From positions 7,294-71,293 of IMG/VR virus record IMGVR_UViG_3300027779_003171: a DNA stretch of 64,000 nt, one strand, 5' to 3'. Below are positions 49,350 through 62,977 of the stretch, in pieces. Source of the DNA: a virus. A program made the position numbers and the translations under genes. How positions within the stretch are numbered: the stretch's first letter is position 1; each line of letters starts with the position of its first letter. A model generated the notes under the pieces. It was not told the DNA's origin and made no database searches. It saw nothing but the letters and a program-made list of their open reading frames with translations.

Positions 49350-52300
49350 ATGAGAATAGAATTTGAAGAATGGTGTGAGAAAAACGAAGAAGAGCTATCT
49401 ATAATGTTTGCCGAGACAGGTATGGATAGGGAACTAGACTTTAATGTAGAAAATGAGTTGGAAAGATGTTATCAAAAATATTTAGAAACTAATAAAAGTA
49501 ATTTAGACGAACTACCCCCAGAAGGAGGTCAGGGAGGCCATTATTAACTACAAAGAATGGTTGAAGTGGAGGGAAGAATATTATAAAGAAAACTCGCTTA
49601 TGCTTTTTAATAAAAAAGGATTGACTGAAGAACAACAGATGGAAGCTTGGGAAAAATCTCTCAAGGAGTCAGACTCAGGCCACAGGCCGTGTTAAAATGA
49701 AAGACACTGGAGAACATAAAAATTTAGGAGTAGGCATGGTGGGTAGCCTAAAGAAAAAAGAGCCCGCCAAGACCAAGAAGAAGCCCAAGGCTAAAAAAAC
49801 GACGGAAAAGAAATTAAAAGAAGGAATAGTAAATAAGGGATTAAGGACAATCAAGATAGAGTATTTGAGACACAGCACCAAGACAGTAGGAATTATAAAC
49901 GAGAAGGGCGAATACACGGTAGTACCAACCAAACAGTGTGGAGAAGGGGACGTGGTTTGGGTGGTGGAAAACGACGGAACCTTTACAAAAACCAAAATAT
50001 ACTAATAAGCTTGACACGTCCGAGAAATCCTGCTATGGTCCTAACCTAAATGGCTGATAAACAAAAATTCATAAAATGTGATTGTCATAGCGAAGGTATG
50101 CTCATCACCAAGTTTGACGATGAGGAAGAACTGTACTTTAGCTACTGGCGTGAGGGCATCAACCCTATCAAATTATCTTGGTGGATGCGACTAAGACTGT
50201 GCTGGATGGTGCTGACGAAAGGCAATGCCTATGATGACCAAGTTATTCTAAATAAAGAAAAAGCCATAGAACTTGCGTCGTGGATTCTGCTCAATGTAGT
50301 CGAGCCAGCAGACAAGGAGCCCGAAATGGACGAGGCTAAATCAAAGGATGAAGCTGCCATGCTCAAAGCCGTGTTCCTCGACCCAGCTTTAGGACAGGAC
50401 ATAACCTCCGAACACGGAGGAGTATAAATGAAAATAACAATTGAACCAACCGAAGACCAGTCTGGTGAAAGCACGGACACTATGCACTCAACGGTAAGCG
50501 TAAGTATTGCCAGTGACGACTTGGACATTACCGAGATAATGGGACAAGTAGTTAAGGCCCTGCAAGCGTGGGGATTTCACAACGAGAATATCGCGAAAGA
50601 GCTCGATTATGAACTCGCGTATGAGCTTGGACTGAAGAAGGAGCCCCCCGAAGAAACCGTTAGGGTTATGAGAGAGGCCGTGGAACGAGCCAGTGACGCA
50701 ATGAAAAATGATCCAGCCCTAGAGTAAGATCAGGTTACAAAATGAGTAAAGAAAGGACAATCGTAAAAGAAGAGATTGTTGAGCGATTCATGGAAGACAT
50801 CGGCGATAGGTCAAAAATTCCTTGGTACACGCTGGTTTGGTGGCGATTCAAATGGAAATATGAAGCGGTTGAGTATTGGTGGCGCAATAAACGTCAGACT
50901 TGGCAAACAGGCTTCCCACATGAACAGGCATGGAACTTTCAGAGTTGGCATTCAAAGGAGGTACTACCTCGCTTGAAGCATCTCCGAAATAACCTTAATG
51001 GTTGTCCTACCGAGATGTTTGAAGAGGATTACGATCACAACGCCGACTCTGAATTAACCAAACAGGAGAGAGAATTAGCTATGGACAGGGCTATACGTAG
51101 CTGGGAGAAGACTTTGGATAAAATGATCTGGTCGTTTGAGCATTGGCAAGATTCGACTAGCCCAATTAAGCCTAAAGACTACGACCCAAGGCACAAGAAG
51201 ACCACCTACAGTGATGGGAGCGTTGGGTACGAGGGCTTGGATGAGAGAAAATGGGACTGGACACCGTGCGAAAAACATAGCGAGAGAGTCCAAGAAGGGC
51301 TGGACTTGTTTGCTAAATATTATTTGAATTTATGGGATTAGCAATGGGATTAGCAATGGGATTAGCAACTGACAAGGATTCCTTTACAGTTGAAACAGAT
51401 ATGGATGCTTTGATGACATTATTTTCACAAGTTGAAGGGGCAATTCGTGAAAAAATTTAGGGGGAAACGAAATGGAAATACTAGAAAAATACCCCAGCCT
51501 CTATCGGGAGAAAGACCTTCCGATGGAAGAGTCTTGTATGCCCTGGGGCTTGGACGTACCCGAAGATTGGTGCCAGTAATTGATAAACTAAGTCACGTCC
51601 TAACTAACCCATATAGAGTAGGTCTCGGCGGTGGTCGGATAATCAAACCCAAATTCACAGCAAAACAAGTAAAACAAAAATTTGGAGACTTACGATTCTA
51701 CTATGAGGTAGATATTGAAGTTGAAGGTAAGGAGCTAACTAAAGAAGAAAGGGCAATCGAAGTAAGGCTCGCAAGAAAATACGCTGATGGAGCGATTGCA
51801 ATGGCGACAGAACTTTGTGAGGGAGAACCATATTAAAATGAAATATTTATTAATAATTATAGCGGCGGCCCTATCAACAGCTTGTCCCACGACAAAAGTT
51901 CTTCCTTGTGGAAGTGATGTTTGTATCGTGTCGGGAAATAAATTGGGTTCGATGGGAACGCCCGTAAGCATTGTTTACAAGGGGAAAAAGATTAAGTTCT
52001 GCTGTAGCCCCTGTATTAAAAAATTTAATAAAAGTCCTGAAAAATATTTAAAATGAGACTTTATAGAAAAGAAAAACACTGGAGCGACTATTGGGAAGTT
52101 CATTTAAATTTTCCGTGGGTGGGAAAAAGACCCAAAAATTCAGGTCAGTTTTTTCATAACCTTTTTGGGATAGAATATGGCTTCAGTTTTCCTACGAAAT
52201 GTTGCTTGTATGTAGAAGATGATTATTATTGGCACTTTACTTTGAAATTTTTAGGATTTGGGATGACAATAATAAGACAGAATGGATATTAATTATGGGG

Positions 52301-53587
52301 ATGTTTGATTATATAAGCTGCGAAATGCCACTACCACGAGGCGGCGCAAATACTATACCTACTTTTAGGTACGACCACCTCTTCCAGACCAAGGACTTGG
52401 ATAACGCTCTTATAGAGTACAAGATTGGTAAAGACAGAATCTTATACCAGAGAAAGGTAGAGTACGAGCGAAGGGAACTAGACGAAGAAGAGAAGAAGGA
52501 TAGAGACAGCGGAGCATTTTGGCACCCTGGGTGGGCCATGGAAGAAAAGAGCCATGAGTGGGTAAGGGGCAACTTTACAGGTTATATTAACTTCTATGAC
52601 GCTCTTAATGATGTAGACAGTACGCATGATGCTTGGGTAGACTACCGCGTTCACGTAAAGAATGGAGAAGTGCAAGGGGATGTGGAACTGGAAACGTACA
52701 GGCTTGAAGATAACACAGAGCACAAAGCCAACACTAAGAAGTGGGGTGAAGAAGCAAAAGCTCGTAAAGAATACGAACAGAAATGGAGATACAAATATTG
52801 CTTCAAGCATTGGAATAGACTAGTAGGTTGGGTATTTCGTGGGGGCAGAAGGATTCACGATTGGACAGACAAACTCGTCTCGTGGAAGGTTGAGCGTTGG
52901 TTAAAATTTTAATATGAAGAAAAAAAATGAAGTCAAATTAAACGATGGAACTCTTGAAGAGGTCATGTCGAGCGACTTCCCGAGAATCTATATTCACAGC
53001 ATGAAGGATCAACCAGACGGTGATTGCACAATGACCTTCGATGCGAATAAAGCGTTTGGCGAGTCGTACAAAAAAGCAAAGGGTCGCAAGCGCGTTAGCA
53101 AGAAGGGGCTCGGCAATTATGTTTTAGAACTTTTTACGAAGGGACTCACTAAGGAATACGGGCATGATTTAAAGACATTAAATGAAAATTAAAATAATAA
53201 GAGAGATGGATGCTGGGTACGACAGACGAGAGCTTCTTTTAGAGGTAGACGACGAACTGCTGAGTATTTACATGGCGGCGATGAACGTGGAAGAGTTTGA
53301 TCAGGATTCCTTTAATCTGTGGTTGGAAGGACTAGTACACTACTCTTCAGATGGGGAGGGTTGGAAGTATGAGTAAAAATATTTTTTATGAAGTCGTGCA
53401 AAACAACAATGGCGTGGGCTTTTTCAGAAAAAAATCCAATGCCGAAGGATATATTAAGGAATTCAACACCAAGGTAGAAATTGCCCCATTAAAAATCGTT
53501 AAAAGGTATTTTCTTGATGATGATTTTGAAAAAGGTTCGAGCGATGACTTCTACGACAGTGACATTAATTGGGATGCGTGGAAATAA
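49350..53587 (+). CDS. Run of hypothetical ORFs (49350, 49697, 50050, 50428, 50742, 52053, 52295, 52914, 53182, 53369)
   Basis: Co-directional packed ORFs with typical phage accessory composition. ORF 52295 begins MGMFDY..C..P..FQTKDL. Confidence 0.55.
51332..51367 (+). repeat. 3 x 12-nt tandem repeat ATGGGATTAGCA
   Basis: Direct reading of the sequence. Confidence 0.95.
51472..51836 (+). pseudogene. Frameshifted phage protein (KYP..SCMPWG..W / QVKQKFG.LRFY type)
   Basis: The N-terminal half ends at TAA 51579. The C-terminal half continues in the -1 frame from about 51570. Confidence 0.65.
51838..52056 (+). CDS. Secreted/lipoprotein YHS(TRASH)-domain metal-binding protein
   Basis: Signal peptide followed by CIVSGNKLGSMG..YKGKKIKFCC..C.KKF..PEKY. 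Confidence 0.8.
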   Translation: MKYLLIIIAAALSTACPTTKVLPCGSDVCIVSGNKLGSMGTPVSIVYKGKKIKFCCSPCIKKFNKSPEKYLK

Positions 53588-53591
53588 GTTC

Positions 53592-53619
53592 TTGACAGAA
53601 AGCAAGCTTCTGCTATACT
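53592..53619 (+). promoter_or_regulatory. Strong sigma70-type promoter upstream of RNA leader and tnpB-like gene
   Basis: TTGACA-N16-TATACT with TG extension. Confidence 0.85.
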
Positions 53620-53624
53620 GTTTC

Positions 53625-53829
53625 TAGTTCCGAGAGGAGCTCTACCGTCGGTTGGACGGAAAGTTACGACTGTCAGATACGATAATTAGATTTTTAAATA
53701 GCTCGCCTACTTAAAGGTCGTCCATCGGGGCAGTAAAATCCTCTAGGGGGTGGGAGTGAATTAATCCTCCCTCCCGCCCCCGCTTTTTAAAAGGATTCCG
53801 ACGCAAGCATGAAATGAATAGCGGATTTT
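53625..53829 (+). ncRNA. Candidate tracrRNA/omega-like scaffold RNA upstream of TnpB-like nuclease
   Basis: GAGA-tetraloop hairpin at 53626-41. Stems 53653-58/53719-24 and 53646-51/53798-803. Anti-repeat AATCCTCTA at 53737-45. GC hairpin 53746-81 followed by a T run. Confidence 0.65.
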
Positions 53830-55311
53830 ATGAAAAAAGAAGCAACCCCAAACATTATCTTCGCCGTAAAGTATCGTATTAACGCGAACAAAAGCGGCAC
53901 TCACTTCCTCAACAAAAGCTTTGCAGCTTCTCGCAAATACTGGAACTGGCAGGTGGCGAGGCAAATGGAAAACTGGAACACCAGAAACGAACGAACTGAG
54001 GAATGGAAAAAGTCTGGGGGTGAAAAATACCTTCAAGACCTCAAGGACAAAATGAAAAAAGACCTTGCTGACGGGGTATACGAAGAGAAGTCAGACGAGC
54101 ACAAGGCAATCCAGAAAGAAATTAGATGTTCTGGATTCCCATTACTGGACGTTGCCCAAGCCGATAAAGATTTTCGGAAGATGAGAAGTGGTGACGACGA
54201 AGAGTATAACTGGATTGGGGAAACCCCAAGTCGCCTCATTGGTGGTCAGTACAAGAGAATGGCGGTTGCCTTTAGGGAAGGATTCAAGAAGAGAAAAGTC
54301 AAGGGCTTTTGGAAAAGCAAAAAAGATTTTGCGAAAAAACCAAACAAAGGATTCCCCCGTTTCAGAAGTTACGTAGACAACCAATATTTCGATTGTGAAG
54401 CAAATCAAATGAAGTGGGATTGGGAAACCAATCGCCTCAAGTTACCATTGTGTGACACTTGGATTAAGTTCAAGCAGCATATTGACATGAAGGGACTTCT
54501 TGAAGAGTACCCGAACGCCAAGCTTGGTACGTGCGTATTCACTCGCACCCCCACTAATAAGCTCTATGTGTTTATTCCAGTGGACACTGGCGTACCCATG
54601 CCCGAGAAAAAAGAATACGATGAGTCCAATACCGTTGGGATCGATGTCGGAATTAGGAATTACATAACGCTTTCGGATGAGTCGAAAATTGAAAACTCTA
54701 CTTTTTTAGAAAAGTTTGGGCTTGATTTCTCAGACGAGAAACTATCCCCGTACAAAACTGACCCGAAGTTGACGCGCCAAAAAAAGATAAGGCAACGACG
54801 GCTTGGTAGGAAAAAGTTTAAGAGTAAGAATTATGCCAAGCAAAAAACAGCTTGCGCGAAGGTTGACGAGAAAATCAAAAACAAGCGAGACGACTTTACC
54901 CATGAACTGAGTAGGTCTTTGGCCAATATGCCGTTCGACGCTTTTGGTGTCGAAGACTTAGACATCAACCAAATGAAAGCGAAGAAGGCTCCCGTAAAGG
55001 GGAAGAAAAAGGGGTCATACGAGCGTAACGGGCAAGCCCAAAAACGTAATTTAAATCGACGAATAAATGACGTTGCTTGGGGTAGTTTCTTTACCAAATT
55101 TAAATACAAGCTGGATCACTGTGGTAAGAGTATGATTAGAATTGACCAGTATGAGCCTAGTTCCAAAAAGTGCACTTGTGGGTATATCAACCGCGATTTA
55201 AAGCTCTCCCAGAGCTTTTGGGACTGCCCCGATTGTGGGTCGAAAAATGACCGAGATAAGCTTGCAGCGTTCAATATAAAGAACTACGCTCTAGGAGGCT
55301 TAAATGACTGA
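53830..55311 (+). CDS. tnpB: TnpB/Cas12f-like RNA-guided RuvC endonuclease (493 aa)
   Basis: RuvC-I GIDVG, RuvC-II VEDL, zinc ribbon CTCG..CPDCG and RuvC-III DRDKLAAFNI; also KGFPRFRS. No adjacent transposase. Confidence 0.92.
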   Translation: MKKEATPNIIFAVKYRINANKSGTHFLNKSFAASRKYWNWQVARQMENWNTRNERTEEWKKSGGEKYLQDLKDKMKKDLADGVYEEKSDEHKAIQKEIRCSGFPLLDVAQADKDFRKMRSGDDEEYNWIGETPSRLIGGQYKRMAVAFREGFKKRKVKGFWKSKKDFAKKPNKGFPRFRSYVDNQYFDCEANQMKWDWETNRLKLPLCDTWIKFKQHIDMKGLLEEYPNAKLGTCVFTRTPTNKLYVFIPVDTGVPMPEKKEYDESNTVGIDVGIRNYITLSDESKIENSTFLEKFGLDFSDEKLSPYKTDPKLTRQKKIRQRRLGRKKFKSKNYAKQKTACAKVDEKIKNKRDDFTHELSRSLANMPFDAFGVEDLDINQMKAKKAPVKGKKKGSYERNGQAQKRNLNRRINDVAWGSFFTKFKYKLDHCGKSMIRIDQYEPSSKKCTCGYINRDLKLSQSFWDCPDCGSKNDRDKLAAFNIKNYALGGLND

Positions 55312-55555
55312 AGAAGAGCGTCAGAGGACCATTTTGGAGCTAGAAAGGGCCACCTGTAGGTTCCCTTCGACAGCAGAAGATTTAGGATTACAACAACTCA
55401 TGAACGAGGAGCAAAAAGGATTACAACAACACATGAACGAGCCTAAGTGCGAGTGTTGTGGCGAGTCCCTGATAGAGGGGAGTTGCCCAGACCACGCCAC
55501 CTATATGAGAAGTCATCAGGCGGCACTAGACGTGCTTAGAGGACAATACAAATGA
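55304..55555 (+). CDS. Small hypothetical protein with internal duplication and CECC..C..H motif
   Basis: Overlaps the tnpB stop codon and the next start codon. Confidence 0.5.
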   Translation: MTEEERQRTILELERATCRFPSTAEDLGLQQLMNEEQKGLQQHMNEPKCECCGESLIEGSCPDHATYMRSHQAALDVLRGQYK

Positions 55556-56085
55556 AAGTATGGGAAATAGGAGTAGGCGAAGGCCACCAAGTCAGGACTG
55601 AGGAGTTCGTAGGCTCGGACGTTGAATGTTATTTATTTGAACCAAACCCGATCTCCTTTGAAGAGGTGAAGGAGAAATTCAAAGACCAAGACAATTTCAA
55701 ATTATTTAATTTCGCGCTAGGCAGCGAGAATAAAACGGTAGATTTTTACTTGGCGAAAGGCTCATCTTTTATAGACGGATACGATTGCCCAGAGCTTTGT
55801 GGAAACCCAAATGCCAAATTCGAAAAACAAAAGGTACAAGTTGAATTGAGAGATGTCAGAGACCTTGACGACGGAGACATAAATACATTATACATAGATA
55901 CAGAGGGGTCTGAATATGATATAATTAAATCCATGGTTAGTAGACCTGAAAAAATCGTGGTAGAAATGCACAGCTTCGGTGTCGGATATAAAAACCCCTA
56001 CTATGACGAAATAAGCGAATGGATGATGGAAAATAATTATGGCATCGTTAGCAGGGGGGAAGATTATGAATTTGAAAAATTGTAA
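55552..56085 (+). CDS. FkbM-family methyltransferase
   Basis: FEPNP, NFALG and IDTEGSEY motifs. Confidence 0.8.
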   Translation: MKVWEIGVGEGHQVRTEEFVGSDVECYLFEPNPISFEEVKEKFKDQDNFKLFNFALGSENKTVDFYLAKGSSFIDGYDCPELCGNPNAKFEKQKVQVELRDVRDLDDGDINTLYIDTEGSEYDIIKSMVSRPEKIVVEMHSFGVGYKNPYYDEISEWMMENNYGIVSRGEDYEFEKL

Positions 56086-56218
56086 GAGGATAACAACACC
56101 GGAGAATCGCACTTGAGAGGATTAAAACATGAGCACAAAAAGTTTTTACGAGGACACAACATCACGTACTACCATTGTAGAATTTAAGAGGATTAGAATA
56201 CGCGCAAAGGTCTAGAGT
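56085..56218 (+). CRISPR. CRISPR-like mini-array: four 12-13 nt repeats with 18/20/26/19-nt spacers
   Basis: AGAGGATAACAAC (56085), AGAGGATTAAAAC (56116), CGAGGACACAAC (56149) and AGAGGATTAGAAT (56187) fill the whole intergenic gap. Confidence 0.55.
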
Positions 56219-56536
56219 ATGAAAAACGTTTGGACGAAGGAAGAAACGGAAGCCCTTAAGAGTCACTGGTTAGAGCACAACCAACGAGAACTTCACGAGA
56301 AGTTTCTCCCTAATAAAACCCCAATACAAATTTGCCAGAAAAAAATGCACATGGGACTGAAGAAACCCCCAGTTTGGACTAATGAAGAGAGAGCTACCCT
56401 ACTTGAACATGGAGCGAATTACTCCCAAACCGAGATGGTTGAAAGATTCTTCCCAAATAAAACTGTTCAGCAGGTTCATGGCATGAGGAAATATTTAGGA
56501 ATCAGGAGAAGAGGCACAGATACAAAGCTAAATTAG
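56219..56536 (+). CDS. Tandem Myb/SANT-like HTH DNA-binding protein
   Basis: Two repeats of WT.EE...L....(FL/FF)PNKT..Q.....(M/L)G. Confidence 0.7.
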   Translation: MKNVWTKEETEALKSHWLEHNQRELHEKFLPNKTPIQICQKKMHMGLKKPPVWTNEERATLLEHGANYSQTEMVERFFPNKTVQQVHGMRKYLGIRRRGTDTKLN

Positions 56537-56586
56537 TTCGAGTAGTCGATGGAGATACCCCAGACGTGAAAGTACCAAAACTATGA
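56521..56586 (+). pseudogene. Thermonuclease (SNase) N-terminal remnant
   Basis: Translates as YKAKLVRVVDGDTPDV followed soon by a stop. Confidence 0.55.
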
Positions 56587-57052
56587 CATCACAAGAAGTT
56601 TTAGACGCTTATTTATCTTTTTTATGGGGACAGTTCCAATACGATTGGGGTTGGCTATCAAACCCATGGCTACTTGTAATAGGGAACATTCTATACTTGA
56701 TGTTCTTTACGATTAAGTGGACGGTCCTTTTGTTTCCCATAACGATACCCATTGTATCTTGGAGGGGCAGTTGGACGCTTAACAACGCTCCTATGAAAAA
56801 TAATGATGTATATAAAAATAATTAAATTTTAAAATGAAACGGAAGAAGAAAGAAGAAACGTTGGACGACACCCTAAAAGATATGGCGACAGCTTGCGAAG
56901 AGAGCGGGGAAAATAGTCTTGCCATAGTATTATATACATATTTAGGGTCTAGAAAAATCGGACTAGATGGTTACTTCGCCAAACATTGCCAAGAGTTTGC
57001 CAGAAAAGGCGACGAAGAGATCAGAAAGCATCTAAAAAAAGGGAATAACTAA
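56583..57052 (+). CDS. Two small hypothetical ORFs (56583-56825 membrane; 56834-57052)
   Basis: ATG-start ORFs. Confidence 0.55.
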
Positions 57053-57072
57053 TTACCCCCCCCACAAGCCAT

Positions 57073-57921
57073 ATGCAATGGAGAATTCCGAATTGTCGCA
57101 CTTACGCTGGCTTTAATCAAGGCCAGTACGGGGATATTTTCATAGGTCTTACTGCGGCGAGGGTTTTAAAAAGAGTAGACCCTGAGTGTAATTTTCTATT
57201 ATCCATAAATAAAAGATACCAAGACTGTAAAGAAATATTCAAACTCAGCAAAGATATCGATGATATAATTATATGGGACACCTACAACGACTTTCCAGGG
57301 GAAAATGACTTGAAGGATATCGAAAGACTGAATGGAACGTACGCAGACTTCAATCTTTTCGATCCTATGCCACAGCATGTGACACTGGACTGGTACAACC
57401 ACAGACACCAAACAGAAGAGTTTTGCTTGATGCATGACTTGCCTAGACCTACGGAAGAAGAAATGAATTTTCAGTTACCAAAACCAGAGGTCGAGCGGGG
57501 AAATTATATTTGTATTTGCCCAGCTACGAGCTTCGGGCAAAACAAGAATCTTACACCAGAAATAATAAATGAAATAAAAAGTTTTTGTTCAGGAACAGGC
57601 TTGGAATTAATTCAGGTCAGCGGTCCCGAAGACCCGTTGGTTGACGGGGCTGAGAGGTTTGTTGGCAGCTTCTACGAGTCGATACTCAAGGTGTTAAGTA
57701 GCAGGTTTTTAGTTTCAGCAGACACGGGAATGATCTGGGCTATTTCCGCTTTCAGTCACCCGACAATCGGCTTTTACTCCTACAGATTTTACGGTGGCGC
57801 AGAAACATCAATCAACTGGAGGCCCAAAAACGCCAATCAAATATCTTTAGAATCGGACTTTATAGAGAACATCGACATAAAAGAGGTTGCAAATTCTCTG
57901 GAAAGGTTATATGATGTGTAA
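57073..57921 (+). CDS. GT9-like glycosyltransferase
   Basis: GQYGDI and VSADTGMIWAISAF..PTIG motifs. Confidence 0.78.
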   Translation: MQWRIPNCRTYAGFNQGQYGDIFIGLTAARVLKRVDPECNFLLSINKRYQDCKEIFKLSKDIDDIIIWDTYNDFPGENDLKDIERLNGTYADFNLFDPMPQHVTLDWYNHRHQTEEFCLMHDLPRPTEEEMNFQLPKPEVERGNYICICPATSFGQNKNLTPEIINEIKSFCSGTGLELIQVSGPEDPLVDGAERFVGSFYESILKVLSSRFLVSADTGMIWAISAFSHPTIGFYSYRFYGGAETSINWRPKNANQISLESDFIENIDIKEVANSLERLYDV

Positions 57922-57929
57922 TATTTTGT

Positions 57930-58331
57930 GGGGGCGTACTGGATTCGATTTAGATTCTTACGCCAGATTGCAAGCGGAGGATAATGGTTGGCCTCTTTAA
58001 ACTTCCATTAAAAACATATATGCCAATAGTAATATTGACATGGCTCCTTCGGTAGCAGAAGCGGACGATATTCTCGCCCGTTTCGGTTTCCAAGAAGCCG
58101 CGCTGGCAGCTTAAGTCCTGCCCCGTCCTACTCTGGATGCTCGTTAAGGAGCTAGGGCGACGATAGCGAGCAAAAAACTAGGGTGAGCAGCACTAGGATA
58201 AAAGGCGGCTCGAAACTCGCGTAGGCCGTTTGTCGGTGACATGCCAAGCGAGTATTAACACCGACTAAGCTTGTAGTATATCTGAGCCGATGGCTCTGAA
58301 GACGTGGGTTCGATTCCCACCGCCTCCACCA
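57930..58331 (+). ncRNA. ssrA: tmRNA (one-piece)
   Basis: 5' GGGGGCG..GGATTCGA and 3' GGGTTCGATTCCC..CGCCTCCACCA with a G3-U pair. Tag ORF 58022-58114 ends ALAA-stop. Confidence 0.95.
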
Positions 58332-58342
58332 AAAATTTTGCT

Positions 58343-59017
58343 ATGATAAGAGAAGACACAGTAGAAAATTTTTACAAGTATCAGGAGGTGGAAGACTACG
58401 AAGGCGGTCACTCACCCAGGTATGACTTTCTGGTAGAAGACTTAAAGCTAGACGGAATAGAAAACAGCAAAGTGGCTGATTTCGGATGTGGTCTCGGCAG
58501 CGTATTCGGTAGACTCCCCAAAGACAAAGGAAATGAATTCCACGGATTTGACGGCTCTAACCCGGAGGACGTATTAAAGTATAAGTTTGCAGATAGCTTT
58601 ACTTACCACCAGCAAGACTTAAACTTGCCTTTCGCAGATAAATTCTTAGAAAAAAACGATTTTCGATTTGACATCGGTATGTCTTTTGAGACATGGGAAC
58701 ATATACCGAACTTGTATCAGTGTATTATAGAAATGAAAAAACTAGTAAAAGAAGGGGGGACTATCTACGCGAGCATCCCACACGAATGCGTAACACATAA
58801 TACTTTTTACCCGGGGCTTCTTTACCCAGTGGAAAACTTTGCAACTTTTTTGGCTCAGATGGCTTTAGAAATTAAAGACCATGCCGTACACCGGAAAGCT
58901 CACACCCAGCACGTTTTTACTTTGGTAAATCATGGGTGGGATAAGTGTAGGATGCGTTTCCCGAAGGCTGAAGAAAAGTTCAGAAATATCCCCCCATTAA
59001 CCGCGATCAATCTTTAG
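58343..59017 (+). CDS. Class I SAM-dependent methyltransferase
   Basis: VADFGCGLG, FETWEHI and GG..YASIP motifs. Confidence 0.85.
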   Translation: MIREDTVENFYKYQEVEDYEGGHSPRYDFLVEDLKLDGIENSKVADFGCGLGSVFGRLPKDKGNEFHGFDGSNPEDVLKYKFADSFTYHQQDLNLPFADKFLEKNDFRFDIGMSFETWEHIPNLYQCIIEMKKLVKEGGTIYASIPHECVTHNTFYPGLLYPVENFATFLAQMALEIKDHAVHRKAHTQHVFTLVNHGWDKCRMRFPKAEEKFRNIPPLTAINL

Positions 59018-59047
59018 AGGATTACAACATTCGCCGTAGCTCAAGTC
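59016..59047 (+). repeat. Solitary repeat (AGAGGATTACAAC) + 19-nt spacer unit
   Basis: Same motif as the 56.1-kb array; fills the intergenic gap. Confidence 0.65.
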
Positions 59048-59683
59048 ATGGGTAAAAAAATAATACTTTCCAGCCTTGGAGACGGGGAGCTAGTAAAGAG
59101 AAGCCAGAAAGGCAATGAGAAGGCTTTCGAGGTTTTGATATATCGTCATGCCGCGCTAGTTCGCTCGTCTTTGTACAAGACGGGGATATCTGAAGCTGAC
59201 GCAAACGACATCCTCCAACAGACCTACATTAAGTCTTGGAGGAGAATTAAAACTTTTAAATTTAAAAGTAATTTTTCTACGTGGTTTTACAGGGTTTGCC
59301 GCAACTCCCTTTACGACTTTTCTAGGCAGAAAACCCGACGAAAATCGAAGGAAATCCCTTGGGAAGATTTATGTTTAGAAAATGATAAAAATCCCCTTGA
59401 CTTTCTACAAGGTAGTGGTATACTATTTGGTAGTGAAGAGGAAAGCCCGAGTGAGCTGGTCGTTGGAAAAGAAAACTCTGACCACTATAAGGCGACTATA
59501 GAAAAGATTAAAAAATCTTTAAAACCTCACCACAGAAGAGTAATTGAGCTTGTAGTGGAAGAAGAGCTAACTTACGCAGAAGCGGCGAAAGTAATGAAGT
59601 GTCCACTGGGGACGGTTATGAGCAGACTACATTTAGCTAGACGAGAAGCTCAAAAAATAATAAGAAGAAGAAAGCTTTTATGA
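59048..59683 (+). CDS. ECF-type sigma70 factor
   Basis: D.ELV.R...G..AFE.L, F...SNFSTWFYR and TYAEAA..CPLGTVMSRLHLAR motifs. Confidence 0.92.
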   Translation: MGKKIILSSLGDGELVKRSQKGNEKAFEVLIYRHAALVRSSLYKTGISEADANDILQQTYIKSWRRIKTFKFKSNFSTWFYRVCRNSLYDFSRQKTRRKSKEIPWEDLCLENDKNPLDFLQGSGILFGSEEESPSELVVGKENSDHYKATIEKIKKSLKPHHRRVIELVVEEELTYAEAAKVMKCPLGTVMSRLHLARREAQKIIRRRKLL

Positions 59684-60512
59684 AAAAAGATGAACTTTTA
59701 GGGATGGAGGTCTTCTACGAAGACAATCCGCAACGATGCGAACCTCGTGGGCACAAAGGCGTGGAAGGGGTAGAGGGGATTCCCGCTCCAAAACCAGTGG
59801 ATGTTTGGGCTTTTGGCGATTCAGACGAAGAAGACGATTTTGATGATGTCTACGGGGAGTGTGACAATTACGACGTTTACGAGCAAGAGCAGCCCCGCGA
59901 TACTCTCATCACCGTCCCGATAAAGGGAAGAATTTATTCTGTGGAGGGGTTGGATATCACGGCGAAATTAAAAGAGATTAGACCCCTAACGAAAACCGCT
60001 GGCATTCTTGAGATGTCCCATCACGGTAACACTTTTTATATAAATCCGAGTGATTTAAAGAGAGCGTCATCCGAGGAGGTGACGCAATATTTAGAAGAGA
60101 GCGATTACAACAATACCCCTTAGCTGATTTATAGAGGATTAGAACATAATAACTAGCAACACCCATGCAAGTCGTAGTTTATTACAACCCGAAAAAGAAG
60201 TGCCTAGAAATTAAAGGGCGCAAGGATGAGAATCGTTATCCCGCGAAAAAGCAGCTTGACGTTCTTAAACGAACTCATGCTCTAGACTTGGGAGAGGTGT
60301 CGCTTAAGAGGAGAACCTTTTCTGGCAAGGTGGATTTAGATACAATCCATTCCTTGGAAGAGAAAAAGTCTCCACGTCCGAAGTGGAAGCAGCAAGTCGA
60401 AATAAAGAAAACGGACGGCGGTAATAGATTTTTTGATGTTAAAACAGGCAAGAAGCTAGAAGCTTACGCTCCTAGGCTCTTCCTAGAAGATTGTAAAATT
60501 TTTGTTCTTTAA
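59680..60512 (+). CDS. Two hypothetical ORFs (59680-60123, 60165-60512)
   Basis: ATG-start ORFs. Confidence 0.55.
60133..60164 (+). repeat. Solitary repeat (AGAGGATTAGAAC) + 19-nt spacer unit
   Basis: Same motif as the array, with the same distance to the next ATG. Confidence 0.65.
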
Positions 60513-60518
60513 AATAAT

Positions 60519-60782
60519 TTTACTGGTTGATCGCCAGTAAAGGGTGTGACCGAATAAACTGCTGTCGCGGCAGTTAAGGTACAGGGCTTGTTTGCAGGAG
60601 ATTACCGTCTCTAGGGGCTTACAAGGGCTGGTTCAAAGTAGGGTTTCTCACTGAAACTCAAGCTGTGACTCCGAAACGATGGAGGTAAATGAGAATCCTC
60701 CCACCCATAATTTACGCGCAGGAAACTGTGCCTTAAAGCAGGAGGTAAGGCTCTTACTTACCTTTCGACCTTGCCTCTTGCT
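60519..60782 (+). ncRNA. Structured RNA, core 60542-60706 resembling the manA RNA motif
   Basis: Closing GGGTG/CACCC pair, TGACCGAATAA 5' motif, terminal GGAGG-TAAATGAGAAT-CCTCC hairpin and flanking hairpins. Confidence 0.55.
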
Positions 60783-62020: not shown

Positions 62021-62977
62021 TTGAAAAAAACAAAAACAACCAAAAAGAGAGAGCCAATCGAGAGCTTAAGCGAGTCTCGCGATTTGATGGTGATGTATTC
62101 CCGACAAGCCCTGAACAACCCGCTTTTAACCAGGGAAGAGGAACAAGTCCTTGCAACCAAAATTCAAAAATGGAAACTAGCTAAAAGAGCTGGCCAAGGA
62201 ACCCGCAAGGCTGGTGAAGAAGCAAGAGAGAAAATGATCTTATCTAACTTGCGCCTCGTGGTGAATGTCGCAAGGAAATACCAAGGCCGAATGGATAATA
62301 TTGATTTAATAAGCGAGGGTAACATTGGCCTTGCTACGGCGGCAGACAAATTCAAACCTGGGGTAATAGCTAAAAACGGAAACATCGTTAAGTTCTCTAC
62401 GTACGCCGTATGGTGGATTAAGCAGGGTATCTTGCGAGCTCTCGCGAATAAGGCCAACATAATTAGACTACCAGCCCATTACCAAGGGAAGGTTAGAAAG
62501 GTATTCGAATTTATTGAAAAATACAAAGAGGAGAACAACGACTACAAGCCCTCCGTAGCGGAAATCGCCAAAGCACTTAAGATGACTTTGTTAACAGCAG
62601 AGAACATTGTTTATACTCGTGAGGGAATAGTTTCCCTAGATAAGAAAATCGGAGAGAGTGAAGATCAAGAAATAGGAGAGTTAATTCCTGATACGTCTTT
62701 CGCTCGCCCAGACGAAGCATTAGCTGACCAAGACAGGTACGAGCAACTCCACAAATTAATGGAGGAGAGATTGAGCCCTAGAGAAGTGGACATACTAAAG
62801 TTACGTTTTGGTTTTGGTGTTAGAGACAGAAGCACCCTAGAGACAATCGGCGCAAAACATAACGTAACGAGGGAACGAATTCGCCAGATTGAAATGAAAG
62901 CTTTTCGTAAATTACGATTTATTTTGGAAAAAAGGAAAAAGGACTTTAAAAAAATAATGGACTCAAGCGAGGTATAG
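62021..62977 (+). CDS. RpoD/RpoS-like sigma70 factor
   Basis: LLTREEE, SNLRLVV..A, DLISEGNIGL, KFSTYAVWWIKQ and TRERIRQIE motifs. Confidence 0.93.
   Translation: MKKTKTTKKREPIESLSESRDLMVMYSRQALNNPLLTREEEQVLATKIQKWKLAKRAGQGTRKAGEEAREKMILSNLRLVVNVARKYQGRMDNIDLISEGNIGLATAADKFKPGVIAKNGNIVKFSTYAVWWIKQGILRALANKANIIRLPAHYQGKVRKVFEFIEKYKEENNDYKPSVAEIAKALKMTLLTAENIVYTREGIVSLDKKIGESEDQEIGELIPDTSFARPDEALADQDRYEQLHKLMEERLSPREVDILKLRFGFGVRDRSTLETIGAKHNVTRERIRQIEMKAFRKLRFILEKRKKDFKKIMDSSEV

What the first reader, a model, noticed from the sequence alone, without database searches (positions are those of the whole stretch)
53625..53829. Leader RNA looks like a tracr scaffold with a built-in first guide
Seen: a 5' GAGA hairpin, stem 53653-58/53719-24, the anti-repeat at 53737-45, and a GC-rich hairpin + T run (53746-88) whose loop carries a second GAGGATTA complement (53762-69). 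Just beyond it, AAAGGATTCCGAC (53790-802) resembles a repeat copy: AGGATT can pair with the anti-repeat and CCGACG with CGTCGG (53646-51). This two-part pairing recalls the repeat:anti-repeat plus pseudoknot of Cas12f guides. Inference: termination gives a free tracrRNA, while read-through gives a natural single guide plus the nuclease mRNA, which could allow autoregulation.
Basis: partly seen in the sequence, partly recalled or inferred. Interest (0 to 1): 0.8.

Follow-up and report, generated by a model that had tools for sequence, protein, structure and literature searches.

The report
Phage TnpB guide-RNA scaffold gene
A small structured RNA with its own promoter sits in front of a phage TnpB nuclease gene and most likely acts as the nuclease's guide-RNA scaffold, pairing with many short repeat-plus-16-base guide units scattered through the phage genome, much like a transposon nuclease turning into a CRISPR-like system.

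Summary
The element is real. A conserved sigma-70-type promoter (53592-53619) drives a ~165-nt RNA (about 53626-53789). It lies beside every close relative of the 493-aa TnpB at 53830-55311: 10 of 10 related loci plus the window. Helices P1-P4 are supported by covariation. It scores consistently, but below threshold, against Rfam HPnc0580, the ncRNA carried by H. pylori miniIS605.

Its invariant AAAAUCCUC (53735-43) and a loop copy (53761-69) complement a 14-nt repeat, GAGGATTAnRACAY. Each repeat is followed by about 16 information-free bases. There are 4 such units after the TnpB operon in the window and about 50, all on one strand, in a 158-kb relative.

The layout maps onto the published ISDra2 omega-RNA, with a GC hairpin (a terminator in 7 of 9 sequences) in place of the tetraloop of "stem 4".

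Two of his pairings are not conserved: the stem 53653-58/53719-24 and the pseudoknot CGTCGG:CCGACG. The "built-in guide" looks degenerate at the repeat positions proposed to form the pseudoknot in most relatives.

No targets, TAM or firm transcript ends were found.

Closest known kind: TranC and tracrRNA-dependent type V systems. This is a new variant with unusually short repeats, dispersed arrays and an upstream scaffold.

The parts
53592..53619 (+). Promoter: TTGACA, 16 nt, (TG)c TATACT
   Evidence: It is the best sigma-70-type match in 52000-58500 (11 of 12, TG present). Both hexamers are kept while the spacer varies in the 8 relatives whose upstream DNA is held.
53626..53641 (+). P1 hairpin (AGTTCC / GGAGCT, loop GAGA)
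   Evidence: 6 pairs, 100% paired in 9 sequences, with one pair changed on both sides. Loop length varies from 4 to 10 nt.
53645..53659 (+). P2 hairpin (CCGTC GGTTG GACGG). The loop GGUUG is invariant.
   Evidence: The closing pair is C-G in 6 sequences and G-C in 3. It aligns with the first hairpin of Rfam HPnc0580.
53660..53668 (+). Single-stranded AAAGUUACG, candidate 5' strand of a pseudoknot with repeat positions -5 to -3 (RAC)
   Evidence: It is nearly invariant in 9 sequences and shared with the HPnc0580 consensus. L003 has GUC here and GAC in its cis unit. The pseudoknot itself is inferred by analogy to ISDra2 (PMC10097598).
53669..53734 (+). P3 (53669-74/53729-34), P3b (53680-83/53724-27) and the long irregular hairpin P4 (53689-53719)
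   Evidence: Pairs changed on both sides: P3 has 2, P3b has 1, P4 has 5.
53735..53743 (+). Anti-repeat 1, AAAAUCCUC. It pairs in cis with AGGAUU 53792-97 (P5) or in trans with (A)GAGGAUU of the repeats.
   Evidence: It is invariant in 9 of 9 sequences and shared with the 3' end of the HPnc0580 consensus, GUAAAAUCC. Cofolding pairs it with the repeat in 5 of 5 window units.
53746..53788 (+). P6: an 11-bp GC hairpin with a second anti-repeat, TTAATCCTC (53761-69), in its loop, followed by a T run (53784-88)
   Evidence: 100% paired, with no change on both sides. A T run of at least 5 follows in 7 of 9 sequences. It is absent in L163 and weak in L003.
53791..53820 (+). Cis repeat-like unit AAGGATTCCGACGC (53791-804) plus 16 nt, AAGCATGAAATGAATA (53805-20)
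   Evidence: A[AG]GG[AG]TT follows the hairpin in 8 of 9 sequences. The window copy departs from the repeat consensus at core positions 0, 7 and 12. No match to the 16 nt was found elsewhere.
53830..55311 (+). TnpB, 493 aa
   Evidence: Pfam hits HTH_OrfB_IS605, OrfB_IS605 and Cas12f1-like_TNB. D272, E375 and D474 are invariant in 14 sequences and align with DVGI, E and DRD of ISDra2 TnpB. The closest PDB entry is ISDra2 TnpB.
55304..55555 (+). 83-aa Cys/His-rich ORF overlapping the TnpB stop codon (ATGA)
   Evidence: It is present after TnpB in the window, L002, L082, L083, L084/L088 and L086, but not in L003. It has no Pfam or PHROG hit. The Atlas gave only weak zinc-ribbon leads.
56086..56218 (+). 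Array of 4 repeat-spacer units. Cores are at 56086-99, 56117-30, 56150-62 (13 nt, degenerate) and 56188-201, each followed by 16 nt.
   Evidence: Units 1, 3 and 4 have counterparts in L083. Unit 2 is missing in a DNA contig of run X3 (a joint from 56123 to 56156 that skips 32 nt).
59017..59046 (+). Single unit (core 59017-30, spacer 59031-46) ending 1 nt before the ATG of an ECF-type sigma factor gene
   Evidence: The orthologous unit in G001 differs at 2 of 16 spacer positions.
60100..60163 (+). Two units: a degenerate core at 60100-13 with spacer 60114-29, and a core at 60134-47 with spacer 60148-63

Best explanation
The 'leader' is a separate small-RNA gene. It encodes the guide-RNA scaffold of the adjacent phage TnpB: an omega-RNA of the IS605 type that has moved from the 3' end of tnpB to a promoter of its own upstream.

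The proposed correspondence with the omega-RNA is as follows.
- P1-P4 form the protein-binding scaffold.
- AAAAUCCUC is the 5' strand of the helix that in ISDra2 is 'stem 4' (the counterpart of repeat:anti-repeat).
- The tetraloop that closes that helix in ISDra2 is replaced here by a GC hairpin, which in most relatives is also an intrinsic terminator.

The RNA can therefore exist in two forms:
(a) a free tracr-like RNA ending after the hairpin;
(b) a form continuous with a cis repeat-like unit and the tnpB mRNA.

Guides would be supplied in trans by 30-nt units, each a 14-nt repeat GAGGAUUAnRACAY plus 16 nt. These units are arrayed after the TnpB operon and elsewhere, and are co-transcribed with phage genes. 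GAGGAUU would pair with the anti-repeat, and RAC at -5 to -3 would probably pair with GUU of AAAGUUACG as the pseudoknot.

Shown:
- the RNA's conservation, structure and promoter;
- its strict co-occurrence with TnpB;
- the repeat family, its strand bias and its 16-nt minimum spacer;
- the sequence complementarity.

Inferred:
- binding to TnpB;
- trans pairing;
- the pseudoknot;
- processing;
- DNA targeting;
- any autoregulation through the sequestered AAGGAUU, which lies 7 nt before the tnpB ATG in most relatives.
For: (1) Co-occurrence.
- Model R1 finds one copy beside every close TnpB: the window plus 10 of 10 loci, all at E <= 1e-31.
- It finds none in 42 loci of distant TnpBs. I searched 60 of the roughly 166 sources then held.
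- A scan of IMG/VR with a leader pattern returns only the two contigs that carry this TnpB.

(2) Independence from the mRNA.
- In L085 the RNA has its own promoter and a 9-T terminator, and a 469-aa ORF lies between it and tnpB.
- In L082 an ORF is also inserted between the two.

(3) Structure: 51 pairs, 94.5% paired, 10 with changes on both sides against 3.8 in shuffles (0 of 500). Slid controls pair at no more than 54%.

(4) Kinship with an IS605 RNA.
- RF02269 HPnc0580 matches the window at 26.3 bits. E is 0.013 on 231 nt and 9.8e-4 as a single family on the genome.
- It also matches 5 of 8 relatives' loci at 25.9-30.1 bits.
- It gives nothing in 7 distant phage TnpB loci (63 kb).
- HPnc0580 lies in miniIS605 (PMC6531487, passage).

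(5) Repeats.
- The pattern GAGGATNNNAAYAY gives 28 hits on the TnpB strand of G001, 0 on the other strand and 0 for the reversed control. In G000 it gives 5, 0 and 0.
- 54 non-redundant units have a 15-nt conserved core, and spacer positions carry no more than 0.17 bits.
- Core-to-core spacing is never below 30, that is 14 + 16. This matches the 16-nt guide of ISDra2 (PMC10097598).
- The 17-unit array has no sizeable ORF on its strand.

(6) Complementarity: AAAAUCCUC is invariant in 9 of 9 sequences, and cofolding pairs it with the repeat in 5 of 5 units.

(7) The layout matches ISDra2's 'natural sgRNA'. There, -3C/-2A precede the guide. Here C is found in 53 of 54 units at -3 and A in 54 of 54 at -2.

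(8) Array turnover: one unit is lost in a natural variant, and unit content differs between the window, L083 and G001.

(9) In an RNA library, the only contig on this 3-kb stretch is 53589-53799. This is weak evidence.
Against: - No target and no TAM were found.
  - Self-matches are not convincingly above chance. 22 of 68 spacers have a match at <= 2 mismatches against 9 of 68 shuffled, and by my reading the excess is orthologous array units between related phages.
  - Three 16-mer scans of IMG/VR gave unrelated hits in numbers I estimate to be those expected by chance.
  - Two candidate target genomes carry no further spacer matches.
- The repeat:anti-repeat pairing is only 7-9 bp and invariant, so covariation cannot test it. 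Duplex energies are not better than shuffled units: 94, 18, 4, 35 and 36 of 200 shuffles do as well.
- G001, which has the most units, lacks the T run after the hairpin, so a free tracr would need processing there.
- L003's 14 kb holds only the cis unit.
- Three window genes start exactly 31 nt after a core. This hints at a 5'-UTR or promoter-like role for at least some units.
- The Rfam match is below the gathering score of 37, and 2 of 14 control genomes also give hits at E <= 1.
- Which end of IS605 carries HPnc0580 was not checked.
- The RNA contig has depth 2.8, starts 37 nt before the predicted start site, and could be DNA carried over into the library.
Confidence: 0.6

Rival explanations
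1. It is a contiguous omega-RNA only. The scaffold plus the cis unit forms a single-guide RNA for TnpB. The dispersed GAGGATTA units are inert footprints, for example tips of a miniature IS605-like element left after insertions, and not trans guides.
For: - The cis unit is present in 8 of 9 sequences, and P5 closes around the hairpin as stem 4 does in ISDra2.
- L003 has a full-consensus cis unit followed by 16 non-coding nt, and no other unit in 14 kb.
- TTTAA, the IS605 insertion target (PMC2993954), lies within 14 nt upstream of 13 of 54 cores, against a background of 2%.
- Two units sit in frame inside the small ORF.
Against: - L085 lacks the cis unit altogether.
- In 6 of 9 sequences the cis 'guide' is the tnpB start codon and coding sequence, and positions -3 and -2 depart from the repeat consensus.
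- The strict one-strand orientation, the conserved 15-nt core, the 16-nt minimum spacer and orthologous units kept between phages argue for selection on the units.
Confidence: 0.15
2. It is a cis-regulatory leader. The RNA is a 5' UTR that controls tnpB by termination and by hiding the Shine-Dalgarno-like AAGGAUU in helix P5. It has no guide function.
For: - AAGGRUU lies 7 nt before the tnpB ATG in L002, L083/L089, L084/L088, L086 and L087.
- Most other genes of the phage lack such a motif.
- A hairpin plus T run precedes it in 7 of 9 sequences.
Against: - In L085 and L082 other ORFs separate the RNA from tnpB, and L085 has no AAGGAUU.
- In the window and L003 the motif is 32-36 nt from the ATG.
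- A 165-nt, five-helix RNA resembling an IS605 ncRNA is more than an attenuator needs.
- A TnpB still needs a guide RNA, and none other was seen.
Confidence: 0.12
3. It is an independent phage sRNA that base-pairs with GAGGAUU-containing 5' UTRs to regulate phage genes. The arrays would act as sponges, or as promoter-like elements for one of the two phage sigma factors.
For: - Cores lie exactly 31 nt before three start codons, one of them an ECF-type sigma gene.
- All units share the strand of the surrounding genes.
- The core contains T[ACG]NAAC-like sequences. From recall, these resemble ECF -35 elements.
Against: - No conserved second element follows the core, with no more than 0.17 bits at +14 to +29.
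- Seventeen units sit 30-51 nt apart with nothing to express.
- The RNA is found only with this TnpB.
Confidence: 0.08

Closest known systems
IS200/IS605 TnpB with omega-RNA (ISDra2; PMC10097598, sections read)
   Same: - A TnpB of the same family (PDB 8h1j/8bf8, E about 1e-24 to 1e-31).
- A multi-stem scaffold of about 120-160 nt.
- A helix next to the guide that joins a tracr-like and a crRNA-like part.
- C-A just before the guide.
- A 16-nt guide length.
   Different: - The scaffold is upstream of tnpB with its own promoter, not at the 3' end of the gene or the right end of an element.
- No TnpA was found among the 5 neighbouring ORFs scanned, and no transposon ends were looked for.
- The closing tetraloop is replaced by a GC hairpin or terminator.
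- Many extra repeat-guide units lie in trans.
TranC, the transposon-CRISPR intermediates, and tracrRNA-dependent miniature type V systems. Source: Jin et al., Cell 2025, seen only as cited in PMC13565253 and bioRxiv 10.64898/2026.03.27.714800 (passages). The original paper is not held.
   Same: - A TnpB-sized nuclease.
- The omega-RNA functionally split into a tracr-like RNA and repeat-guide units.
- Some members are phage-borne (CauTranC9).
- No adaptation genes nearby.
   Different: - Repeats reported there are 32-38 bp in regular CRISPR arrays of 3-20 repeats. Here the conserved repeat is 14-15 nt (up to about 25 with TTTAAGTATAA), spacers are about 16 nt with linkers of 0-13 nt, and arrays are scattered over the genome among genes.
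- The scaffold still carries a cis unit.
- The nearest TranC structure is distant (LaTranC 9jfo, E 3e-12 to 3e-19).
Rfam RF02269 HPnc0580, the ncRNA of H. pylori miniIS605 (PMC6531487 passage; PMC2993954 passage)
   Same: Shared order of elements: UCUA, a hairpin, AAAGUUACG, CAGAUA, then GUAAAAUCC at the 3' end.
   Different: - Scores of 25.9-30.1 bits are below the gathering score of 37.
- The host, the element and the position relative to tnpB all differ.
- Its function in H. pylori is listed as uncharacterised (PMC8322730).
Phage-encoded miniature Cas12 systems: Cas12p 'hacker' (bioRxiv 10.1101/2025.01.20.633832, sections 5 and 7 read) and Cas12r (bioRxiv 10.64898/2026.04.20.719267, abstract read)
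   Same: Small RuvC nucleases carried by phages, with guide arrays thought to act against rival elements. Cas12p uses a tracrRNA.
   Different: Those were found through standard CRISPR arrays and are 500-700 aa Cas12 families. This protein is only distantly related to Cas12p (9jfs, E 7e-6).

Membership tests
TnpB omega-RNA (OMEGA, IS200/IS605) | The RNA is encoded at or overlapping the 3' end of tnpB and runs to the transposon's right end | tested here: not met
   The RNA lies upstream of tnpB in 11 of 11 loci. The tnpB stop codon overlaps the next ORF.
TnpB omega-RNA (OMEGA, IS200/IS605) | A structured scaffold beside a catalytically intact TnpB | tested here: met
   Covariation in P1-P4. The RuvC residues D, E and D are invariant.
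TnpB omega-RNA (OMEGA, IS200/IS605) | A pseudoknot between the nucleotides just 5' of the guide and an upstream strand | tested here: inconclusive
Candidate pairing is RAC with GUU of AAAGUUACG. There is one compensatory case, in L003.
TnpB omega-RNA (OMEGA, IS200/IS605) | A single guide of about 16 nt directly 3' of the scaffold | tested here: inconclusive
   A cis unit is present in 8 of 9 sequences but is mostly degenerate and overlaps the tnpB start codon. It is absent in L085.
TnpB omega-RNA (OMEGA, IS200/IS605) | An associated TnpA transposase and transposon ends | tested here: not met
   No transposase domain in the 5 neighbouring ORFs scanned. The flanking genes are syntenic phage genes. 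Transposon ends were not searched for as such.
Type V CRISPR-Cas / TranC with tracrRNA | An array of direct repeats separated by unique spacers, next to the nuclease gene | tested here: met
   4 units in the window, 17 directly after the operon in G001, and 4 in L083. They are atypical: a 14-15-nt repeat, 16-nt spacers and variable linkers. Tandem Repeats Finder does not see them.
Type V CRISPR-Cas / TranC with tracrRNA | A tracrRNA with an anti-repeat complementary to the repeat | tested here: met
   7-9 nt of complementarity at 53735-43 and at 53761-69. This holds at the sequence level only.
Type V CRISPR-Cas / TranC with tracrRNA | Spacers match foreign DNA beside a consistent PAM or TAM | tested here: inconclusive
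   No convincing protospacers were found. Only 3 of about 65 spacers could be scanned against a public collection.
Type V CRISPR-Cas / TranC with tracrRNA | Mature crRNA and tracrRNA bound to the nuclease | not testable with these tools
   This needs small-RNA sequencing or RNA immunoprecipitation. There is only one RNA contig over the leader.
Rfam RF02269 HPnc0580 | A score at or above the gathering threshold of 37 bits | tested here: not met
   Scores are 25.9-30.1 bits in 6 of 9 sequences.
Intrinsic terminator / attenuator leader | A GC hairpin followed by a T run before the regulated gene | tested here: inconclusive
   Present in 7 of 9 sequences, absent in L163 and weak in L003. The consensus scan missed it because the loop is 14 nt.

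The most novel reading that the evidence does not exclude
This would be a natural TnpB system caught part-way through RNA splitting. One scaffold gene yields two forms: a contiguous omega-RNA whose cis unit doubles as the tnpB ribosome-binding site (feedback), and a free tracr-like RNA. The free form loads any of dozens of 30-nt guide units embedded in phage operons.

If so, a lytic marine phage would carry a CRISPR-like arsenal of 50 or more guides, with no cas1/cas2 seen near it, that standard CRISPR finders cannot see. The units that end 1 nt before start codons would couple guide processing to the making of leaderless mRNAs.
Probability: 0.25. Interest if true: 0.88.

Novelty: new variant of a known kind. 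Interest (0 to 1): 0.72.

Why it matters
If the reading holds, it matters in three ways.

1. **Evolution of type V systems.** TnpB can run a multi-guide, CRISPR-like system with only a 14-nt repeat and 16-nt guides. That gives a living example of the omega-RNA to tracrRNA + crRNA split that has been proposed as the origin of type V systems.

2. **Hidden guide arrays.** Arrays with repeats this short are missed by ordinary repeat finders, as they were here by Tandem Repeats Finder. Other viral genomes may hold similar arrays unnoticed.

3. **A small, testable system.** A 493-aa nuclease, a 165-nt scaffold and 30-nt guide units are enough to study how guides are processed from mRNAs and what a lytic phage uses about 50 guides for.

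Tried and rejected
**Targets**
- I searched for self-targets and cross-targets of 57-68 spacers in G000, G001 and the related loci. 22 of 68 spacers had a hit at <= 2 mismatches against 9 of 68 shuffled, and by my reading the excess is orthologous units.
- The cis guides and the in-ORF units had no second match.
- Three spacers were scanned against IMG/VR.
  - The first gave 33 hits, mostly in high-GC phages.
  - The second gave 3 unrelated hits.
  - The third gave 19 hits.
- A 256-kb phage (G002) that matched one spacer shows no enrichment for the others.
- Four near-identical proviruses (G004-G007) match 19 of 19 nt after window unit 2. G004 has no other spacer match, and I estimate the 3-nt extension has about a 1-in-5 chance among the 12 distinct hit groups I counted. 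I rejected this as evidence.

**Homologues and known families**
- Phage BLAST of the locus gave nothing.
- The single-protein locus search in IMG/VR gave nothing.
- The genome-contig scan found no TnpB above 31% identity, so it gave no host clue.
- Rfam at gathering thresholds finds nothing at the leader.
- No HPnc0580-like RNA was found at distant phage TnpB loci.
- Tandem Repeats Finder does not detect the arrays.

**Other tests**
- Duplex energies do not separate real from shuffled units.
- The promoter reading of the repeat was rejected for lack of a second conserved element.
- The small ORF has no informative relatives.
- The RNA run gave one contig of depth 2.8, and contigs cannot give transcript ends.
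- The parts of the stretch without RNA cover are not evidence of silence.

**Literature**
- Searches found no description of a TnpB with an upstream scaffold and 14-nt repeat units.
- The TranC paper itself and all supplements could not be read. They may hold such cases.
Full report
**Setting.** The window is part of a 71-kb IMG/VR phage record, estimated 41% complete. It carries ribonucleotide reductase, a DnaB-like helicase, DNA polymerase, six tRNAs, a tmRNA and two sigma factors. The ORF at 53830-55311 is a 493-aa TnpB with Pfam domains HTH_OrfB_IS605, OrfB_IS605 and Cas12f1-like_TNB.
- It has about 18 close relatives at 60-88% identity, followed by a gap down to 30%.
- In a 14-sequence alignment D272, E375 and D474 are invariant. 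They align with the DVGI, E and DRD motifs of ISDra2 TnpB, the closest natural solved structure.
- No relative above 31% identity was found in the collection of 185,579 species' genomes, so the clade is known only from phage or metagenome contigs.

**Checking the observation.**
- The strongest sigma-70-type match in 6.5 kb lies just upstream: TTGACA, 16 nt, TG-c-TATACT (11 of 12 positions).
- Both hexamers are kept, while the spacer between them varies, in all 8 relatives with upstream DNA.
- A covariance model built from 8 sequences found exactly one copy beside each close TnpB: the window and 10 of 10 loci. It found none in 42 distant-TnpB loci, with 60 sources searched.
- A scan of IMG/VR starting from the RNA returned only the two contigs that carry this TnpB.

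**Structure.** I used 9 non-duplicate sequences. L089 (identical to L083) and L084 (a truncated copy of L088) were left out. My structure has 51 pairs.
- 94.5% of cells pair.
- 10 pairs show changes on both sides, against 3.8 in shuffles (0 of 500 shuffles reach this).
- Slid controls pair at no more than 54%.
- P1, P2, P3, P3b and P4 covary.
- P5 (AAUCCU with AGGAUU) and the GC hairpin P6 do not vary, so they can be neither supported nor refuted this way.
- His pseudoknot CGTCGG:CCGACG is specific to the window.

**The repeats.** Downstream of TnpB lies a small Cys/His-rich ORF that overlaps its stop codon. In the window an FkbM-type methyltransferase gene follows, and then come short repeats.
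- The 158-kb relative G001 (91% complete) has 28 exact matches to GAGGATNNNAAYAY, all on the TnpB strand. There are none on the other strand and none for the reversed control.
- With a looser pattern G001 has about 50 units. Seventeen sit directly after the TnpB operon, and further groups lie up to 38 kb away.
- That pattern gave 60 hits in G000, G001, L083, L084 and L086. I dropped 5 that lie in coding regions away from arrays, plus 1 duplicate.
- The remaining 54 show a 15-nt core, A-GAGGATTA-N-R-A-C-A-Y. The next 16 positions carry no more than 0.17 bits each.
- Core-to-core spacing is never below 30, that is 14 + 16, with a mode at 35.
- The linkers are A/T-rich, often TTTAAGTATAA.
- The 17-unit array has no sizeable ORF on its strand.
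- The window has four units at 56086-56218, one at 59017 and two at 60100-60163.
- Units are gained and lost. Window unit 2 is absent from L083 and from a DNA contig of an independent run, which shows a joint skipping 32 nt. Other units are orthologous between phages.

**What the RNA is related to.** At a relaxed threshold the only Rfam family that matches the leader is RF02269 HPnc0580.
- The window scores 26.3 bits, with E 0.013 on 231 nt and E 9.8e-4 as a single family on the genome.
- Five of 8 relatives' loci score 25.9-30.1 bits.
- Seven distant phage TnpB loci give nothing.
- All scores are below the gathering score of 37. Two of 14 control genomes also give hits at E <= 1. The relatives are not independent of one another.
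- The alignment shares UCUA, a hairpin, AAAGUUACG, CAGAUA and a terminal GUAAAAUCC.
- HPnc0580 is the ncRNA carried by miniIS605 (PMC6531487, passage). That element keeps 100-150 bp of each IS605 end (PMC2993954, passage).
- That HPnc0580 is the IS605 omega-RNA is my inference.

**Mapping onto the solved omega-RNA.** In ISDra2 (PMC10097598, the omega-RNA sections) a 116-nt scaffold of four stems and a pseudoknot precedes a 16-nt guide.
- Nucleotides -5 to -3 pair with an upstream strand.
- Stem 4 joins a tracr-like part and a crRNA-like part through a UUUA tetraloop.
- Here P5 takes the place of stem 4, and the GC hairpin takes the place of the tetraloop.
- The repeat splits into a stem strand (GAGGAUU) and a pre-guide strand (A-N-R-A-C-A-Y).
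- R-A-C could pair with GUU of the invariant AAAGUUACG, or with the invariant P2 loop GGUUG.
- L003 has GUC in the former and GAC in its cis unit, a single compensatory case.
- Cofolding pairs the repeat with AAAAUCCUC in 5 of 5 window units, but duplex energies do not beat shuffled units.

**Free or fused.**
- In L085 the RNA has its own promoter and a 9-T terminator and no cis unit. A second promoter and a 469-aa ORF then precede tnpB. This is a free tracr-like gene.
- L082 also has an inserted ORF.
- In 7 of 9 sequences a T run follows the hairpin. G001 has none and L003 has a weak one.
- The cis unit is present in 8 of 9 sequences. In six of them its last bases are the tnpB start codon, and its -3 and -2 positions depart from the consensus. 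It fits the repeat consensus best in L003 and departs at three core positions in the window, and in both it is followed by 16 non-coding nt.
- I therefore read the cis unit as a relic of the contiguous omega-RNA. It now mostly serves as a sequestered ribosome-binding site. Feedback on tnpB is plausible but was not tested.

**Expression.** One metatranscriptome run holds a single 211-nt contig on the 3-kb stretch. It covers 53589-53799 with no mismatch. It fits a discrete abundant RNA. However, its depth is 2.8, contigs give no transcript ends, it starts 37 nt before the predicted start site, and DNA carry-over cannot be excluded.

**What speaks against the guide reading.**
- No protospacers or TAM were found.
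- Three window genes start exactly 31 nt after a core. That is unexplained and leaves room for a 5'-UTR role.
- Rival readings are listed with odds in the Rival explanations section: a contiguous omega-RNA only, a cis-regulatory leader, or an independent sRNA with promoter-like repeats.

**Comparison and novelty.** The concept matches TranC and tracrRNA-dependent type V systems (passages in PMC13565253 and bioRxiv 10.64898/2026.03.27.714800; the original paper is not held). Those have 32-38-bp repeats in regular arrays. Four features differ here:
- the 14-15-nt repeat;
- the 16-nt guides;
- arrays dispersed within operons;
- an upstream scaffold that retains a cis unit.

My literature searches found no such case, but supplements and the TranC paper were not readable. 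I rate it a new variant of a known kind.

Noticed in passing
window 56219, 59048, 60165: Three genes have their ATG exactly 31 nt after the start of a repeat core, that is 14-nt core, 16 nt, then 1 nt. One of them is an ECF-type sigma factor. Guide processing might leave near-leaderless mRNAs, or the unit may have a 5'-UTR role.
   Followed up: partly
window 55383-55445: Two repeat-like units (TAGGATTACAACAA and AAGGATTACAACAA, each followed by 16 nt, with a 33-nt period) lie in frame inside the 83-aa ORF that follows TnpB. L002 has one at the same place. L082, L083, L084 and L086 have none.
   Followed up: partly
54 units in G000, G001, L083, L084 and L086: TTTAA lies within 14 nt upstream of 13 of 54 cores, against a background of 2%. 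TTTAA is the reported insertion target of H. pylori IS605 (PMC2993954). It might be a TAM relic, or simply part of a longer repeat, TTTAAGTATAA.
   Followed up: partly
window 56131-56149; G004-G007: The 19 nt between window unit 2 and unit 3 match four near-identical proviruses exactly. The 5' flank there is ...GGTATTAC. No other spacer matches G004, so this may be chance.
   Followed up: yes
window 55347-56086 and 56123-56156: DNA contigs from other seawater runs carry two variants. One replaces 738 nt (the methyltransferase region) with 147 other letters. The other lacks 32 nt, which is one repeat-spacer unit.
   Followed up: no
window 57930-58331: A phage-encoded tmRNA (133 bits) with a long tag peptide ending in ALAA. 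Relatives L082 and G001 carry one too.
   Followed up: no
window 60521-60711: A manA RNA motif (RF01745, 60.4 bits, above its threshold) lies just after the units at 60100-60163 and the ORF at 60165-60512.
   Followed up: no
window 59048-59683 and 62021-62977: Two sigma factor genes, one ECF-like and one with regions 1.2 to 4. Several genes have TTGACA/TATnnT promoters with leaders of only 10-12 nt, and most genes lack a Shine-Dalgarno motif.
   Followed up: no
L085 1595-3004: A 469-aa ORF with its own promoter and no Pfam hit is inserted between the scaffold RNA gene and tnpB.
   Followed up: no
window 55304-55555: A small Cys/His-rich ORF (CxCC...C..H) is translationally coupled to TnpB and conserved in 6 distinct relatives. 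It could be an accessory protein of the system.
   Followed up: partly
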